Below, in pieces: positions 1,126 to 6,354 of a stretch of 64,000 bases of DNA. A model generated the notes under the pieces. That model was not told the DNA's origin. It made no database searches and saw only the letters and a program-made list of their open reading frames with translations. The first letter of the stretch is position 1; the number at the start of each line of letters is the position of its first letter. The DNA is from Alphaproteobacteria bacterium (GTDB lineage: Bacteria; Pseudomonadota; Alphaproteobacteria; UBA828): contig OZ243972.1 of the NCBI GenBank assembly GCA_965214705.1, forward strand, positions 1,888,001 through 1,952,000, read 5' to 3'. A program made the translations under genes and the position numbers.

Positions 1126-2781
1126 TCAGCTTGACGCCGGGTCGAAGTTCCAGGGCAGGAGTTCGTCGATTTTGGATTGGGGGTGGCCGGCGGCGATCTT
1201 CTCCAGCGTGCTCTTGAGCCAGGCGTAGGGCTCGACCCCATTCATCTTGCAGGTCTCGATCAGCGAAGCGATCCGGCCCCAAGAGATAGCGCCTTCGTCG
1301 TGGCCGGCGAACAACGCGTTCTTGGCCGTGAGTTTGATCGGACGGATTCGGTTCTCGACGAAGTTGCTGTCCATCTCGACGCGCCCGTCGTACAGGAACT
1401 CCAGCAACCCCTCCCACTGGTTGGCGATGTAGGTCAGCTTCTCGCCGAGGCGCGAGCGCGGCGAGACCAGCGAGCGCTGCTCGTCGAGCCAGACGCCGAA
1501 GGCGTTCACCAGCGGCGCGGACTCGGTCCATCGAACGAACTGGCGCGTCGCCGGCGGCTCGCCCCGGATCTTATCTTCGATCCTGTAGAGCTGAGCGATG
1601 CGCTCCAGACCGGCCTTGGCGATCGGCGAGGCGTTGCTGTCGAACACCTCCTTGAGGCCGCGCCTGGCGTGGACCCAGCACGCCGCGAGCGTCAGTGCTC
1701 CTCCGGATCGATCCGGCCGGCGCAGCCGGTTGTGGCCGGAATAGCCGTCGACCTGCACCGTTCCCTTGAAGCCCGCGAGCAGCTTCTCGCCATGCTTGCC
1801 GCTGCGGCTGGGCGCATAATCGTACACCACGCCCGGCGGATCGGCCCCGCACCATGCCCGCTCGTCGCGCGCCATCGTCCACATGTAGCCGGTCTTGGTC
1901 TTGCCCCGGCCCGGGTCGAGAACCCGAACCGTGGTCTCGTCCAGGCCGAGGTTGCTCGACGTCTTCAACTCCCCCTTCAGGCAGTCGAACACGGGCCGCA
2001 GGTGGAACGACGCCTTGCCGACCCACTCGGCCAGCGTCGAACGGTGCAGCTCGATGCCCGAGCGGGCGTAGATCTGCGATTGCCGGTACAGCGGGAGGTG
2101 GTCCGCGAACTTCGACACCAGCACGTGGGCGAGCATGCCCTCGGTGGGCAGCCCGCCCTCGATGAGGTGCGCCGGCGCCGGCGCCTGGGTGACGCCTTCC
2201 TCGCAACTGCGGCAGGCGTACTTCGGCCGGATCGTGACGATGACCTGAAGTTGCGCCGGAACGATGTTGAGCCGCTCGGTGCGGTCCTCGCCGATCTTCA
2301 CCATCTCACCGCAGCCGCACGGGCACAGCCTGCTCTCGGGCTCGACAACCTCGTAGGTGCGCGGCAAGTGGGCCGGCAGATGACCGATGTTGCGTTCCGC
2401 AGCGGGGCGCTTCGCGCGCGGCGGCCGCGTCGTGCTCGCCGGGGTCTCTTCCTCGGCCTCGGCAAGCGCGCCTTCGAGCTCCTCGAAGGCGAGCAGGAGC
2501 TGGTCGGGATGGAGCTTCTCGGACTTCTTCCCGAACATCGCCCGGCGCAACTCGTTGAGCAGATGTTCAAGACGCTGGTTCTGCTCGGTGAGCGAGGCGA
2601 CCTTGGCGCGCAGGGTCTCGACCGCCGCTTCCGGGTCTTGCTCCTCGAGACGGCGGTTGCGAGCGCTCAGCGCCGCATTCTCGGCGCGAAGCGCCTCAAG
2701 AGCCGCCTGCTGCGCCTCGAACAGCGCCCGGTAGGGGCGTGCGAGCGCGCCGAGATCGACGTTGCCGGTGCCCGTCTCCAT
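1126..2781 (-). CDS. tnpC: IS66 family transposase TnpC
   Basis: Leucine zipper, FGKKSEK, CPCGC/CRSC zinc finger, KFADHLPLYRQ, LDET, CWVHARR, DSNFVENRIRP, IDELLPW. Confidence 0.95.
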   Translation of the reverse strand: METGTGNVDLGALARPYRALFEAQQAALEALRAENAALSARNRRLEEQDPEAAVETLRAKVASLTEQNQRLEHLLNELRRAMFGKKSEKLHPDQLLLAFEELEGALAEAEEETPASTTRPPRAKRPAAERNIGHLPAHLPRTYEVVEPESRLCPCGCGEMVKIGEDRTERLNIVPAQLQVIVTIRPKYACRSCEEGVTQAPAPAHLIEGGLPTEGMLAHVLVSKFADHLPLYRQSQIYARSGIELHRSTLAEWVGKASFHLRPVFDCLKGELKTSSNLGLDETTVRVLDPGRGKTKTGYMWTMARDERAWCGADPPGVVYDYAPSRSGKHGEKLLAGFKGTVQVDGYSGHNRLRRPDRSGGALTLAACWVHARRGLKEVFDSNASPIAKAGLERIAQLYRIEDKIRGEPPATRQFVRWTESAPLVNAFGVWLDEQRSLVSPRSRLGEKLTYIANQWEGLLEFLYDGRVEMDSNFVENRIRPIKLTAKNALFAGHDEGAISWGRIASLIETCKMNGVEPYAWLKSTLEKIAAGHPQSKIDELLPWNFDPASS

Positions 2782-2855
2782 CGCAGAATACTATCACGGA
2801 ATCAGCTACTTAGTAAAGAAGAGAGAGCGCAAAAGTGGGCTGTGCCGCCCCTGCA

Positions 2856-3209
2856 TCACGCCGCCGCAAGCGGCTTGCGCGCCCGCCGGCTCCACACCCG
2901 GCGCCAGTCCAGGCCCTCGAACAGCGCCTCGAATTGCGCGCGCGACAGACGCATCGTGCCGTCGCGAACCGTGGGCCAGGCAAAGCGGCTCTCCTCCAGA
3001 CGCTTGTGCGCCAACACCAAGCCCGTGCCGTCCCACCACAGCACCTTGATCCGGTCCGCGCGCTTGCAGCGAAACACCACGACAAGCCCCGAATAGGGGT
3101 CCAGACCGAGATCGCTCGCGACGATCGCAGCAAGCCCGTCGTGCTGCTTCCTGAAATCAACCGGCCGCGTCGCCACCACGATCCGCAGGCCGGAGCCCGG
3201 AACGATCAT
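2856..3209 (-). CDS. tnpB: IS66 accessory protein TnpB
   Basis: PVDFRKQHDGL...DRIKVLWWDGTGLVLAHKRLE motif. Confidence 0.95.
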   Translation of the reverse strand: MIVPGSGLRIVVATRPVDFRKQHDGLAAIVASDLGLDPYSGLVVVFRCKRADRIKVLWWDGTGLVLAHKRLEESRFAWPTVRDGTMRLSRAQFEALFEGLDWRRVWSRRARKPLAAA

Positions 3210-3496
3210 CGAAGCGCTCGCAACGCCGAGGCGATCGACGTGATGCGCACCGTGCTCACGTCGCCGTCGAGGCGTACCGTCACGCCGCGTGCCTCGATCG
3301 AGACCGAGCCCACATGGGCAGGTGCGGGGGCAGACTCCACCTCAACGGTGGCAAACGGTCCCTCGCTCGGCGCCGCCGGGGGAACCACGAGCTCGCCCTT
3401 GCGAGCCAGCTTGCGCCAGTACGAAAGCCGACGAGGGGGTACCCCGTGGCGCTCGGCCACCTCCTCTACGGTCGTCCCCCGCTCAAAACTCTCTTG
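3206..3496 (-). pseudogene. tnpA: IS66 TnpA, 3' part; 5' part lies at 6159-6354
   Basis: Joining at the duplicated CTTG restores REWSDEEKAWIVQ-ESFERGTTVEEVAERHGV, the TnpA HTH. Confidence 0.85.
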
Positions 3497-3724
3497 AACG
3501 AAGCCGCTACGCGGAGTTAGCGGCGTAGAGTTCATTCATTTCCGAGGCGTCGCGGGTGCCGTTTGTTCTGTGCGTTCGCTTCCCGGTTGCGTCAGTGGCG
3601 CTCCGCCCGTCGGGTGGCGGATCCCCAGCAGCCTCCCGATCACCAGTGGTTAGCATCGACCCCTGCGACGGACCGTCGCCGGATCGGTCCGGCGGCGCGC
3701 CGTCGCGATCCAGGGAGATCGATA

Positions 3725-4603
3725 ATGACCGGGACCGCGTGCGACACGAACACCGTCACCCCTCTTCGCCAGCGCATGGAGGAGCAGCTCCGCATCGCCA
3801 ATCTGGCCGCGAGCACGTCCAAGGCCTACATCTGCGAGATCAAGAACCTGGCCAGGTACTACGACGCCTCGCCGGACGAGCTCGACGCCGAGCAGGTGCG
3901 CCAGTGGTACCTGGGGCGGATCGACAAGGGGCTCAGTCCGGGCACGACCAACGTCTCCTTCGCCGCGCTGAACTTCCTCTACATCGACACACTCGGCTGG
4001 CCTGACCATGTCGCCGGCCTGCGCTCCCGCAAGAAGCCCGGCAAGCTGCCGCGCTACATGTCGGAGCAGGAGGTCGAGCACCTCATCCTTGCGACACCCG
4101 ACCTCCGCCACCGTGCTGCCATTGTCACCGGCTATGGCGGCGGGCTCCGCATCTCCGAGACCTTGGCCATCAAGGTCGGCGACATCCTGTCGGAGAAGAA
4201 GCTGCTGCACATCCCCTCCGGCAAAGGCGGCACCGAGAGAATGGCACCGTTGCCGGACATCGTCATCCACTACTTGCGCGTCTACTACAGGAACATCTGG
4301 CCGCGTCCGACGAACTGGCTCTTCTACGGCGTCTCGCTCGACAGGCCCATCGCAACGGAGACCTTGCAGGCCGCCTTCAGGAGGGCGCGCGACATTGCCG
4401 AGCTCGACCGCAGCTACACCTTCCATTGCCTGCGCCATTCGGCGGCGACCCATCTCCTCGAGCGCGGCGGCGATATCGAGGTGATCCGGGACATGCTCGG
4501 CCATCGAAGCGCGAACACGACCCGTCACTACGCCCGCGTCACCGGCAAGATGTTCGAGGGCCTCGACCACCCGATCTCAGGCTTCGCAGCGTTGCGCAAC
4601 TGA
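3725..4603 (+). CDS. Tyrosine recombinase/integrase (SAM-like N-terminus, integron-integrase-like group)
   Basis: TPLRQRMEEQL N-terminus; catalytic GLRISE, GKGG, HCLRHS, LGH, TRHYARV. Confidence 0.92.
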   Translation: MTGTACDTNTVTPLRQRMEEQLRIANLAASTSKAYICEIKNLARYYDASPDELDAEQVRQWYLGRIDKGLSPGTTNVSFAALNFLYIDTLGWPDHVAGLRSRKKPGKLPRYMSEQEVEHLILATPDLRHRAAIVTGYGGGLRISETLAIKVGDILSEKKLLHIPSGKGGTERMAPLPDIVIHYLRVYYRNIWPRPTNWLFYGVSLDRPIATETLQAAFRRARDIAELDRSYTFHCLRHSAATHLLERGGDIEVIRDMLGHRSANTTRHYARVTGKMFEGLDHPISGFAALRN

Positions 4604-4609
4604 CGGCGC

Positions 4610-5851
4610 GTGGAGGCCGAACGCGCGGGCGTGGCGGAGATCTTCCGCCGCGCCGGCGCCGCTTTCCGTGAGCGCCACAAAGGGCGCATCGACGCCGCCC
4701 GGCTCAAGGTCATGGGCGCCATCGAGGCGTGCCGCACCGCCGTGCTCGGCGGCCACATGTACGCCTGCGAGGGCTGCGGGCGCGAGCATCCGCTCTTCAA
4801 CTCCTGCCGCAACCGCCACTGCCCCACCTGCCAGGGTCTCGCCGCCAACCTCTGGAGCGAGGAGCGCGCCGGGGACATCCTGCCGGTGCCCTACTTCCAT
4901 GTGGTCTTCACCCTGCCCAAGGAGGTTGCCGCCATTGCCTTCTGCAACCGCAGGGTGGTGTTCGACATCCTCTTCCGGGCCGTCGCCGAGACCCTGCGCA
5001 CCATCGCCGCCGATCCCCGCCACGGCGGCATGCGCATCGGCGGCACCGCGGTCCTCCATACCTGGGATCAGAAGCTCCGCTTCCACCCGCACCTGCACGT
5101 GGTCGTGCCCAACGCGGGCTTCGACGTAGACAGTGGCGAGTGGAAGACGGGGAGCACCACCTTCCTCGCCCCCGTCAAGGTCCTCGGCAGCCTGTTCCGC
5201 CGCCTCTTCCTCAAGGAGCTCGCCCGCGCCCACGGCCGGGGGGACCTGGAGTTCCACGGCACCCTCGCCCACCTCGCCAATCCCGGCGAGTTCCACGCCA
5301 CGCTTGCCGCCGCCCGGGCCAGGGACTGGGTGGTCTACGCCAAGCGGCCCTTCCGCGGGCCTGAGCAGGTCTTCCGGTACCTCTCGCACTACACGCACAG
5401 GATCGCCATCTCCGACAGCCGCATCGTCTCCTTCGACGGCGAGACGGTCTCCTTCCGCCACCGAAAGCCCAAGGCGCCGGGGCAGAGAAAGCCGCGCTAC
5501 GGCATCGCCACCGTGAGCGCCGACGAGTTCATCCGCCGCTTCCTGAGGCACGTCCTGCCGGACGGCATGCACCGCATTCGCTACTTCGGCATCCTCGCCA
5601 ACGGCTGCCGCGCCAGCACGCTGGAGAGAGCACGCCAGGCTCTCGGCGCCCTCGGCTGCGCCGCCCCCGAGGGAAGCGTGGACGGCGCTCGGGCCGAGCC
5701 CGACGAAGAGCCCGAGATCGGCACCGCGCCCGTGGCCTGCCCCCACTGCGGCGGCGTCATGCGCCTCGTCCGCGAAATCCGCCGCCGCCATGAGCCCCGC
5801 TCGACGCGCGGCCCGCCGGCGCTGCCGCCGACCCACAGGGGGAAACCGTGA
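4610..5851 (+). CDS. IS91 family (Y2 HUH) transposase with N-terminal zinc-binding domain
   Basis: CRT..LGGH..CEGC...NSCRNRHCPTC, YFHVVFTLP, LHTW...HPHLHVV (HUH), YLSHY, HVLPDGMHRIRYFG. Confidence 0.93.
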   Translation: MEAERAGVAEIFRRAGAAFRERHKGRIDAARLKVMGAIEACRTAVLGGHMYACEGCGREHPLFNSCRNRHCPTCQGLAANLWSEERAGDILPVPYFHVVFTLPKEVAAIAFCNRRVVFDILFRAVAETLRTIAADPRHGGMRIGGTAVLHTWDQKLRFHPHLHVVVPNAGFDVDSGEWKTGSTTFLAPVKVLGSLFRRLFLKELARAHGRGDLEFHGTLAHLANPGEFHATLAAARARDWVVYAKRPFRGPEQVFRYLSHYTHRIAISDSRIVSFDGETVSFRHRKPKAPGQRKPRYGIATVSADEFIRRFLRHVLPDGMHRIRYFGILANGCRASTLERARQALGALGCAAPEGSVDGARAEPDEEPEIGTAPVACPHCGGVMRLVREIRRRHEPRSTRGPPALPPTHRGKP

Positions 5852-6113
5852 GACGCCCGCTCGCTTCGGCCCCGCGCAACGGCGCCAAAGCGCCGACGCA
5901 CGACCGAACCTGTCTCCGCTTGAGCCGGGCTGACAGCCCTCGGCTCACACCCCGCTCAGTCCTCGCAGCGTGCGCCCGCATGCCTGCCGAAAGACCGGCG
6001 CGAGCGTCGATTTTATGCGCAACTCTGCTGCCGGTGGATGCCGCCTGACGCTGACATCAGCGCACTTTCCACATAGCTCAACTTCGCCTCTCGTGGCCCG
6101 CGGCTTCGTTCAA

Positions 6114-6155
6114 AAGGGTTGGGCAGGCTCTCGAGAGAGAGCCTGCCCAACCCTT
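6114..6155. repeat. Perfect 19-bp stem hairpin at the right end of the IS91-like element
   Basis: AAGGGTTGGGCAGGCTCTC-gaga-GAGAGCCTGCCCAACCCTT. Confidence 0.9.
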
Positions 6156-6158
6156 AAC

Positions 6159-6354
6159 CTTGGACGATCCACGCCTTCTCTTCGTCCGACCACTCTCGCT
6201 GACGCGCGCCGTCCTGCGAACCCTCCGAGGCCTTGCTTGCCTCGTCCTCGTCGCCAACCTCTTCCTTCGCTTGTCGCGGAACCGACCCACGCAGAATATC
6301 GAAACCATCCATCGCATGATCCTCCACAGCCAGAGGATCATCGAACCTCATCAC
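6159..6354 (-). pseudogene. tnpA: IS66 TnpA, 5' part
   Basis: RQREWSDEEKAWIVQ, in frame with 3206-3496 after excision of the nested element. Confidence 0.8.

What the first reader, a model, noticed from the sequence alone, without database searches (positions are those of the whole stretch)
3493..6162. Integrase + HUH element whose two ends build one attC-like hairpin only after circularisation
Seen: the element sits in IS66 tnpA with CTTG at both junctions, so the empty target is known exactly (CTTGGACG), and it differs by one base from the element's left junction (CTTGAACG). Joining the ends gives GCGGCTTCGTTCAA + AAGGGTTGGGCAGGCTCTC-gaga-GAGAGCCTGCCCAACCCTT + aacc + TTGAACGAAGCCGC, a 33-bp stem with a 4-nt extrahelical bulge right beside the crossover. 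Known: IS91 HUH enzymes make single-stranded circles and use CTTG/GTTC targets; integron integrases recombine folded ssDNA attC sites with extrahelical bases; integrase + IS91-transposase gene pairs are known but, as far as I know, mechanistically unresolved. Inference: the HUH protein produces an ssDNA circle and the tyrosine recombinase integrates the folded junction.
Basis: partly seen in the sequence, partly recalled or inferred. Interest (0 to 1): 0.75.

Follow-up and report, generated by a model that had tools for sequence, protein, structure and literature searches.

The report
Integrase-carrying IS91 element, junction hairpin
This is a very active jumping gene of the IS91 family that carries a second enzyme (an integrase), and its two ends are built so that they fold into one long bulged hairpin only when joined, a layout shared by distant relatives that makes the unknown job of the integrase testable.

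Summary
Window 3494-6159 is a 2,666-bp IS91-family insertion sequence (Xer/IntI-like tyrosine recombinase, then a Y2 HUH transposase) inserted without duplication at C|TTG in an IS66 tnpA. The genome holds about 90-100 copies, 66 of them full length.

A 14-nt terminal inverted repeat flanks a 19-bp hairpin plus AACC at the right end. Joined ends therefore fold into a 33-bp stem with a 4-nt bulge at the joint. One tandem junction exists in this genome, with its bulge filled in; one head-to-tail contig exists in another genome.

The layout (right repeat, hairpin 0-8 nt later, 4-11-nt spacer, left repeat) was mapped in 16 of 41 homologous loci, down to 33% transposase identity. The hairpin covaries. 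Repeat mismatches are mostly G.T pairs on the bottom strand.

Both enzymes keep every catalytic residue. Targets read AA-N6-|TTGnnCG.

Which enzyme inserts the folded junction is not decided. The integrase model is plausible (about 0.4). An HUH-only insertion, with the integrase acting elsewhere at the junction, is nearly as likely. The element belongs to a known family; the conserved junction architecture and the target symmetry were not found in the papers searched.

The parts
3494..6159 (+). Whole insertion sequence, 2,666 bp, TTGAACG...CCCTTAACC
   Evidence: Empty-site comparison; contigs skipping 2,666 nt; 66 full copies in the genome.
3494..3507 (+). Left terminal inverted repeat (IR-L), TTGAACGAAGCCGC; its first 7 nt are mimicked by targets
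3504..3514 (+). Small GC hairpin (CCGC-TAC-GCGG) overlapping the inner part of IR-L; terIS-like. The equivalent is seen in homologues and in the IS91 and IS1294-like left ends.
   Evidence: Read (by eye); the family feature is stated in PMC13181058.
3725..4603 (+). Tyrosine recombinase, 292 aa, Xer/IntI-like
   Evidence: Pfam Phage_integrase and Phage_int_SAM_4. NCBIfam hits are all below their cut-offs. R142, K167, H234-R237, H260 and Y269 are invariant.
4610..5851 (+). IS91-family Y2 HUH transposase, 413 aa, GTG start 6 nt after the integrase stop
   Evidence: Pfam Y2_Tnp and Zn_Tnp_IS91. NF033538 at 382.5 bits against a cut-off of 125. H159/H161/H163 and Y257/Y261 are invariant.
6100..6113 (+). 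Right, subterminal inverted repeat (IR-R), GCGGCTTCGTTCAA, directly abutting the hairpin
6114..6155 (+). Perfect 19-bp hairpin with a 4-nt loop (GAGA here, TCTC in 8 of 66 full copies); oriIS-side palindrome
   Evidence: covariation.
6156..6159 (+). AACC spacer. It becomes the 4-nt bulge in the joined form, and the breakage-joining point is at its 3' edge.
6160..6166 (+). Target half-site TTGGACG (consensus TTGnnCG); flank, not element
3206..3493 (-). Distal part of the interrupted IS66 tnpA (HTH_Tnp_1)
   Evidence: uninterrupted paralogue.
6160..6354 (-). Proximal part of the interrupted IS66 tnpA
1126..3209 (-). IS66 tnpC (1126-2781) and tnpB (2856-3209), the host element

Best explanation
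This is an active IS91-family rolling-circle insertion sequence of the integrase-carrying subgroup. Its ends form a composite recombination site only when joined.

Proposed steps:
1. INFERRED from IS91: the Y2 HUH transposase nicks the bottom strand after CAA at the right end (CAA|GGTT, 4 nt from the hairpin) and after GTTCAA at the left end. This releases a bottom-strand circle.
2. SHOWN as sequence potential, conserved in relatives: in the circle, IR-R and IR-L pair and stack on the right-end hairpin. The result is a 33-bp stem with the joint exposed at the edge of a 4-nt bulge.
3. INFERRED, my lean at about 55:45 over the HUH enzyme: the Xer/IntI-like tyrosine recombinase binds this folded junction and a duplex target of the form AA-N6-|TTGnnCG. 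It exchanges only the bottom strand at the boundary of the TTG arm, as integron integrases and XerCD/CTX-phage do. Replication then completes the insertion.
4. SHOWN: the product carries no duplication. The target's right half resembles IR-L, so each new copy regains a TTG next to its right end.
For: - Family and ends.
- Copy number and exact ends: 100 left and 95 right anchors, 66 full copies.
- No duplication: 16 of 21 independent paralogous empty sites fit a clean insertion of TTGAACG...AACC. Where the right-flank dinucleotide is not TT, the left junction still reads TT in 11 of 12 cases listed.
- Conserved layout: IR pair plus a stem-loop beginning 0-8 nt after IR-R (median 2) in the window's element and 16 homologues with 33-81% transposase identity.
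- Hairpin covariation: 5 of 19 pairs changed on both sides, none on one side only; score 0.182 against 0.074, with 0 of 500 shuffles as high.
- Repeat mismatches: 8 of 12 non-Watson-Crick IR pairs are C.A or A.C on the top strand, which is G.T on the bottom strand. None is a top-strand wobble. IS91's inserted form is the bottom-strand circle (PMC13181058).
- Natural junctions: the C2 tandem and a contig of another genome whose tail repeats its head (L093).
- Gene linkage: the integrase lies directly upstream on the same strand in 23 of 26 rows and 20 of 20 rows.
- Catalytic residues: invariant in the integrase (26-27 of 27) and the transposase (35 of 35).
- Target logo from 75 non-redundant sites: A at -8 in 35 and at -7 in 34 (17% and 12% at control TTGnnCG sites); T at +1 in 62; T at +2 in 72; C at +6 in 55; G at +7 in 44. 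Inverted half-sites around a 6-bp spacer, with the exchange at one arm boundary, are the established layout of tyrosine-recombinase core sites.
- Reviews describe IS91 itself as lacking terminal inverted repeats (PMC5714925, passages).
Against: - No experiment or read shows a circle here. Only contigs were available and no back-joint was listed.
- Integrase-less IS91 inserts its bottom-strand circle with TnpA alone (PMC13181058).
- 'Target resembles the left-end cleavage sequence' also holds for canonical members (GTTC at both terIS and target; PMC13181058). The TTGnnCG half-site is therefore not specific evidence for the integrase.
- The IS1294-like element, which has no integrase, also has a 10-nt repeat that can pair only across the joint.
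- The spacer between hairpin and joint varies from 4 to 11 nt among relatives. A flexible single-strand nuclease would tolerate this more easily than a recombinase synapse.
- The left half-site is weak: only AA, with no C/G enrichment beyond control.
- The inner hairpin of L089 and L092 has a top-strand T.G. The strand signal is therefore not uniform.
- 3 of the 12 IR mismatches are C.C, all in one clade.
- 5 of 21 empty-site comparisons show 1-2-nt irregularities at the TT that neither model explains simply.
- The integrase lacks the integron-integrase insert and is below every curated cut-off.
Confidence: 0.4

Rival explanations
1. HUH-only transposition. The Y2 transposase does initiation, termination and insertion exactly as in IS91. 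The folded junction simply presents CAA| to that enzyme. The integrase performs a different catalytic step at the same junction, for example resolving tandem or multimeric copies or double-strand circles left by failed termination.
For: - Precedent: IS91 TnpA inserts bottom-strand circles without any integrase (PMC13181058).
- The same no-duplication, TT-centred target logic, with target mimicry of the left end, is seen here.
- A left-end hairpin plus GAAC motif is shared with the IS1294-like element.
- The 4-11-nt spacer variation fits recognition of a hairpin plus a flexible single strand, as in other HUH nucleases (established knowledge of relaxases and IS200/IS605).
- The only tandem junction among about 90 copies is an aberrant, bulge-less one. 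This fits normal junctions being removed efficiently.
Against: - It does not explain why a catalytically intact integrase is kept in every lineage sampled.
- It does not explain why IR-R abuts the hairpin.
- It does not explain the AA at -8/-7 of targets.
- Resolution of rare tandems seems a weak selective reason for universal retention (inference).
Confidence: 0.35
2. The terminal repeats are ordinary double-strand protein-binding sites at the two ends, for the integrase or for the transposase zinc domain. The right-end hairpin is only the oriIS palindrome. The long junction fold is a by-product with no role.
For: - Covariation of IR-L with IR-R is expected for shared protein binding as well.
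- The repeats are conserved in sequence (TTGAAC / GGAC core) across clades.
Against: - IR-R always lies inboard of the hairpin and within 0-8 nt of it, while IR-L is exactly terminal.
- Mismatches are biased to bottom-strand G.T, 8 against 0 top-strand wobbles.
- At the tandem junction a templated GGTT was copied opposite AACC. That requires the outer arms to have paired at least once in vivo (template switching is my inference).
Confidence: 0.15
3. The 6114-6155 palindrome is an independent insertion, a REP-like repeat or a transcription terminator, unrelated to the element's ends.
For: It is a perfect GC-rich palindrome downstream of the last gene.
Against: - It is present at all 95 anchored right ends.
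- It occurs at the same position, with different sequences, in relatives and covaries.
- It is not followed by a T run.
- In this genome the hairpin sequence was met only at ends of this element: hits to that part of the query lie at copies of the element, and the junction search found no other context.
Confidence: 0.02

Closest known systems
IS91, IS801, IS1294 (canonical IS91 family, HUH Y2 rolling-circle transposition)
   Same: - Y2 HUH transposase with an N-terminal zinc domain (NF033538 above cut-off).
- No target duplication; a short TT-centred target that mimics the left-end cleavage sequence.
- Distinct ends with subterminal palindromes.
- A left end of the form (T)GAAC, 3-4 nt, then a small GC hairpin, also seen in the IS1294-like copy.
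- The bottom strand is expected to be the transferred strand (PMC13181058).
   Different: - An integrase gene is always present upstream.
- 12-20-nt terminal inverted repeats are present, whereas IS91 is described as having none (PMC5714925); my search of the IS91 copy found none longer than 7 nt.
- A strong hairpin lies 4-11 nt from the right tip, in place of the TTCCTAT-type right end seen in IS91 and the IS1294-like copy.
- The right flank reads TTG in the transposase-sense strand, where the canonical copies read CAAG.
- The target is extended: AA-N6-TTGnnCG.
Integrase-carrying IS91 members listed in ISfinder/TnPedia (recalled from memory; no call or paper here confirms the names)
   Same: A tyrosine-recombinase gene directly upstream of the IS91-type transposase.
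   Different: I could not see those entries. In the library searched no paper was found that describes their ends, junction fold or targets. Whether this element already has an ISfinder name is unknown.
Integron cassette recombination (IntI with folded bottom-strand attC and duplex attI)
   Same: - A Xer/IntI-like recombinase with a SAM_4 N-domain.
- A folded single-strand hairpin with unpaired bases beside the crossover.
- A crossover immediately 5' of TT.
- A proposed exchange of one strand only, completed by replication.
   Different: - The recombinase lacks the IntI-specific insert. TIGR02249 matches in two stretches that skip profile positions 175-253, and the score (130) is below the cut-off (265).
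- There is no attI, no promoter and no cassette array.
- The circle would be made by the element's own HUH enzyme.
- Targets are many loosely defined sites.
CTX-phage type integration (HUH Rep makes single-strand circles; XerCD recombines the folded attP hairpin with dif); recalled knowledge
   Same: An HUH replication protein combined with a Xer-type recombinase acting on a bulged hairpin formed by two inverted half-sites of single-strand DNA, with one-strand exchange.
   Different: The recombinase is encoded by the element and not by the host. The target is not dif. The element is a 2.7-kb insertion sequence with about 90 copies.
IS200/IS605 (Y1 HUH, subterminal hairpins, cleavage site a few nt from the hairpin)
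   Same: The hairpin plus short spacer plus cleavage-site geometry at the right end; no duplication; the target equals the left-end cleavage sequence.
   Different: A different transposase family, no integrase, and tetranucleotide guides instead of 14-nt repeats.

Membership tests
IS91 family | Transposase of the HUH Y2 type matching the family model | tested here: met
   NF033538 at 382.5 bits (cut-off 125) and Pfam Y2_Tnp plus Zn_Tnp_IS91. HUH and both Tyr are invariant in 35 of 35 sequences.
IS91 family | Insertion without target-site duplication | tested here: met
   16 of 21 independent empty sites fit a clean 2,666-bp insertion. The other 5 show 1-2-nt irregularities, not a regular duplication. 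Contigs skip 2,666 nt.
IS91 family | Short sequence-specific target next to the oriIS (right) end | tested here: met
   The right flank begins TT in 70 of 86 distinct flanks (TTG 43, TTT 15, TTC 11, TTA 1). However, the motif lies on the opposite strand from the CAAG seen beside the IS91 and IS1294-like copies.
IS91 family | Two different ends with subterminal palindromes (oriIS, terIS) | tested here: met
   A right 19-bp hairpin and a left small GC hairpin. Their function was not tested.
IS91 family | No terminal inverted repeats (as stated for IS91 in PMC5714925) | tested here: not met
   A 14-nt perfect repeat, 3494-3507 with 6100-6113; conserved in 16 homologues.
IS91 family | Single-strand circular intermediate | not testable with these tools
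   Only assembled contigs of public runs were available. Tandem or head-to-tail junctions were seen in assemblies but do not prove circles.
Integrase-carrying IS91 subgroup (recalled from ISfinder) | Tyrosine recombinase gene directly upstream of tnpA on the same strand | tested here: met
Integron integrase / attC system | IntI-specific extra segment and a score above the family cut-off | tested here: not met
   TIGR02249 at 130 bits against a cut-off of 265, matched in two stretches skipping profile positions 175-253. NF011946 at 74 bits against 435.
Integron integrase / attC system | attI site, cassette promoter and cassette array beside the integrase | tested here: not met
   The element holds only the two genes between its ends.
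Integron integrase / attC system | Folded single-strand site with paired boxes and extrahelical bases at the crossover | tested here: inconclusive
   A bulged 33-bp fold with the joint at the bulge edge exists and is conserved. Whether a recombinase uses it is unknown.
XerC/XerD | Score above the equivalog cut-offs; action at dif | tested here: not met
   TIGR02224 at 134.7 bits against 335 and TIGR02225 at 118.2 against 330. The targets are about 75 different sites.

The most novel reading that the evidence does not exclude
This is a two-enzyme transposon that works like a free-living integron cassette. The IS91-type HUH protein only copies the element out as a bottom-strand circle. The element's own Xer/IntI-like recombinase then recombines the folded, bulged end-junction with loosely defined AA-N6-TT duplex sites by exchange of one strand. 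If so, a whole, widespread branch of the 'IS91 family' (Proteobacteria and at least one Clostridium plasmid) moves by tyrosine-recombinase insertion of folded single-strand DNA.
Probability: 0.35. Interest if true: 0.85.

Novelty: new variant of a known kind. Interest (0 to 1): 0.62.

Why it matters
Only four IS91-family members have been shown to transpose (PMC13181058). The role of the integrase in the integrase-carrying branch is, as far as my searches show, not treated in print.

This genome offers a natural experiment. It has about 90 near-identical copies with exact ends, 75 distinct targets, one frozen tandem junction and flip-flopping hairpin loops. From these data come concrete, cheap tests:
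- Tyr mutants of each enzyme.
- The natural bulge-filled junction as a negative control.
- Bottom-strand versus top-strand circles.

If the integrase inserts the folded junction, a third system, after integrons and CTX-type phages, would use tyrosine recombination of folded single strands, and it would encode its own circle-making enzyme. If it does not, the data still define a new end architecture and an extended target for a large IS91 branch that annotation pipelines label only 'IS91 family transposase' plus 'integrase'.

Tried and rejected
- Orientation against replication. A first count suggested a 60:28 bias against local GC skew. After masking the element copies it vanished (46:42 at 100 kb). 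The skew of this rearranged genome is weak, so the test says nothing.
- Target as a hairpin. Within-site complementarity between -13..-7 and +1..+7 is not above shuffled partners. The dyad signal exists at consensus level only.
- Circle detection. All holders of the element are assembled contigs, and no RNA holder was listed. Laying four runs showed the empty IS66 site and depth ratios of roughly 30-60 between element and flank, but no back-joint. This is no evidence on circles or expression.
- Integrase-transposase complex prediction: no answer.
- The search for related loci with the integrase gave only 3 loci, so I used the genome search instead.
- The S. meliloti pSymA copy without an integrase proved to be a 5'-truncated relic that keeps the right end. 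It is not an integrase-less variant.
- I considered a 2-bp TT duplication with a 2,664-bp element. I rejected it because 11 of 12 insertions whose right flank does not start with TT still have TT at the left. One copy (C2 371310, AT at both sides) fits it.
- I considered the loop flip as a product of recombinase or HUH strand swapping. Two template switches within the palindrome explain both the loop-only flips and the GGTT-filled tandem junction more simply (inference).
- Literature. Five searches found no paper on integrase plus IS91 pairs. PMC43276 is not held. The supplementary insertion-site tables of PMC13181058, which could show whether canonical IS91 targets carry AA-N6, are closed.


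Full report
**What is there.**
- Window 3494-6159 (+) is a 2,666-bp element.
- It carries a 292-aa tyrosine recombinase at 3725-4603 (Pfam Phage_integrase plus Phage_int_SAM_4).
- Six nucleotides later comes a 413-aa IS91-type transposase at 4610-5851 (Y2_Tnp plus Zn_Tnp_IS91).
- NCBIfam files the transposase as an IS91-family equivalog: 382.5 bits against a cut-off of 125.
- The recombinase matches XerA, XerC, integron-integrase and XerD models about equally, all far below their cut-offs. It lacks the integron-integrase insert. Its best solved relative is a XerC-like protein, 4a8e.
- The element interrupts the tnpA of an IS66 copy on the minus strand (tnpB 2856-3209, tnpC 1126-2781).

**The observation.**
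- Joined by script, the last 80 and first 40 nt fold into a 14+19-bp stem with AACC bulged out: -48.0 kcal/mol on the top strand and -47.7 on the bottom.
- The empty site is given by an intact IS66 paralogue and by contigs of two public runs that skip exactly 2,666 nt.

**Copy number and exact ends.**
- The genome (7.92 Mb, 3 contigs) holds 100 left-end and 95 right-end anchors, 90 left-right pairs and 66 full copies of 2,663-2,670 bp, mostly at least 99.7% identical.
- The constant part runs from TTGAACG to CCCTTAACC.
- The base before it varies: C 47, T 29, A 18, G 5 of 99 distinct flanks. The bases after it vary too: TTG 43, TTT 15, TTC 11, others 17 of 86.
- Paralogous empty sites exist for 21 independent insertions. 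Sixteen fit a clean insertion with no duplication.
- Five show 1-2-nt irregularities at the TT: one or two extra T at the right, a target base replaced by T at the junction, or a joint shifted by one.
- I cannot explain these five under either model. The TT behaves a little like an overlap.

**Targets.**
- In 75 non-redundant sites the consensus is AA(-8,-7)-N5-Y|TTGnnCG(G).
- Counts: A at -8 in 35 and at -7 in 34 (17% and 12% at random TTGnnCG sites of this genome); G at -1 in only 2; T at +1 in 62; T at +2 in 72; G at +3 in 38; C at +6 in 55; G at +7 in 44.
- The right half copies the element's own left end (TTGAACG).
- The element also inserted three times exactly at the left tip of a second integrase-plus-IS91 element of this genome, whose end reads TTGAACTGAGCCGC.
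- There is no within-site complementarity beyond the consensus.

**Relatives.**
- With the integrase as query, 14 of 401 genomes of the class match.
- With the transposase as query, 18 of 401 genomes of the class and 26 of 401 of the phylum match.
- Wherever the contig leaves room, the integrase sits directly upstream on the same strand: 23 of 26 rows (the three without are a contig start and two fragments) and 20 of 20 rows.
- A Skermanella plasmid copy and a Clostridium plasmid hit annotated with an adjacent integrase show the same pairing.
- Catalytic residues are invariant. In the integrase, R, K, HxxR, H and Y are kept in 26-27 of 27 sequences. In the transposase, HUH and both Tyr are kept in 35 of 35.

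**Ends of relatives.**
- An ungapped search mapped an inverted-repeat pair in 16 of 41 distinct homologous loci. The others were mostly cut by contig ends, or my search found no repeat.
- In all 16, and in the window, IR-L lies at or near the presumed left tip; exact tips were mapped only where several copies or a natural junction allow. IR-R lies inboard, and a stem-loop starts 0-8 nt after IR-R (median 2). The hairpin sequences differ between clades.
- A 4-11-nt spacer then leads to the tip.
- In the closest clade (6 sequences), 5 of 19 hairpin pairs changed on both sides and none on one side only. The covariation score is 0.182 against 0.074 in shuffles, with 0 of 500 as high.
- One 98%-identical copy of this genome has a compensated T-A for C-G.
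- Of the 12 non-Watson-Crick IR pairs, 8 are G.T on the bottom strand, none is a wobble on the top strand, 3 are C.C (one clade) and 1 is C.T.
- Against this strand signal, the inner hairpin of two related elements has a top-strand T.G.

**Natural junctions and dynamics.**
- One tandem dimer exists (C2:643959-649298). Its junction is a perfect 37-bp-stem palindrome in which GGTT has been added opposite AACC and the loop is flipped. It is the only junction in the genome.
- A contig of another genome (L093) ends with the 98 nt that it begins with. It joins TTAATTCG to TTGGACTGAACG and folds the same way.
- The 4-nt loop occurs as GAGA in 58 and TCTC in 8 of 66 full copies, on at least five SNP backgrounds.
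- I read both features as template switching within the palindrome. The GGTT fill-in needs the outer arms to have paired.

**Comparison with canonical members.**
- I took one IS91 copy and one IS1294-like copy from E. coli plasmids and set their ends by the extent of matches in other plasmids.
- Both have the small GC hairpin about 9 nt from the left tip. The IS1294-like copy starts with TGAAC, like this element.
- Their right ends carry a TTCCTAT-type motif rather than a tip-proximal hairpin.
- Their right flank reads CAAG in the transposase-sense strand, which is the opposite strand from this element's TTG.
- IS91 has no end-to-end repeat above 7 nt. The IS1294-like copy has a 10-nt AT-rich repeat that would pair only across the joint.
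- Published work says IS91 makes no duplication, has a tetranucleotide target next to oriIS, has subterminal palindromes and inserts its bottom-strand circle with TnpA. It does not mention integrases (PMC13181058: Introduction read in full, other passages by term search). A review states that IS91 has no inverted repeats (PMC5714925, passages).

**Reading.**
- Firm: this is an IS91-family element of the integrase-carrying kind. The hairpin is its own right-end structure. The ends are designed to make one bulged hairpin when joined, and this design is old and conserved.
- Open: which enzyme inserts the joined form.
- For the integrase: the invariant catalytic residues, the universal linkage, repeats that IS91 itself lacks, and a dyad-like target with a 6-bp spacer and exchange at one arm boundary.
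- For the HUH enzyme: the IS91 precedent, target mimicry of the left end in canonical members too, the variable spacer, and the junction-spanning repeat in the IS1294-like copy.
- I put the integrase-inserts model at about 0.4, the HUH-inserts model at 0.35, and 'fold irrelevant' at 0.15.

Noticed in passing
Own genome, e.g. G000:C1:38128-42442 (locus L030:2572-3876 for the ORF); equivalent to window position about 4799: 15 of 22 enlarged copies of the element are broken at exactly element nt 1306, inside the transposase zinc domain. In the one copy examined, the insert is 1,650 bp and encodes an IS110-family transposase (Pfam Transposase_20 plus DEDD_Tnp_IS110). It looks like a site-specific parasite of this element.
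   Followed up: partly
Own genome, e.g. G000:C2:692237-694340 (L124): A 2.1-kb DDE element (592-aa DDE_Tnp_1 protein, ends CGAACTTCC...) sits exactly at the right tip of this element in at least 7 copies, in both orientations. In the one copy examined, CTTAACC is duplicated. About half of its roughly 14 copies are at this one kind of site.
   Followed up: partly
Own genome, e.g. G000:C1:1526487-1529101 (L106-L115): A second integrase-plus-IS91 element (about 2.6 kb, about 9 copies; integrase 34% and transposase 40% identical) has the same layout: TTGAACTGAGCCGCG ... CGCGGCTCAGCTCAA, a 13-bp hairpin, then CAATTCATTAT. Several of its flanks carry a palindrome, GTTGAGCTCAAC, that resembles its own repeats.
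   Followed up: partly
Right-end hairpin loop, window 6133-6136 and the other copies: The 4-nt loop is GAGA in 58 and TCTC in 8 of 66 full copies, on at least five SNP backgrounds. This is a flip-flop far more frequent than point changes between copies.
   Followed up: partly
G000:C2:646560-646680 (L121): This is the only tandem junction of the element in the genome. It is a perfect 78-nt palindrome, with GGTT added opposite the AACC bulge.
   Followed up: yes
L122 (E. coli plasmid, IS1294-like element): A 10-nt AT-rich repeat lies 26-35 nt from the left end and 14-23 nt from the right end. It could pair only across joined ends and would enclose the joint and the left hairpin. It may hint that junction folding is general in the family.
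   Followed up: no
Empty-site comparisons p4, p37, p70, p71, p86 and copy C2:371310: The TT at the joint behaves like a 2-nt overlap. Junctions occur with the element's TT on both sides although the paralogous target reads TC or GT, with the target's dinucleotide on the left only, with AT on both sides, or with one or two extra T on the right.
   Followed up: partly
Public runs X1, X3, X4, X8 (coded): Contigs at least 99% identical to the element occur in runs of four studies labelled as different organisms. In X1, X3 and X4, contig depths are roughly 30-60 times those of the flanking IS66 (no flank depth in X8). The burst of this element is therefore not confined to one assembly.
   Followed up: no
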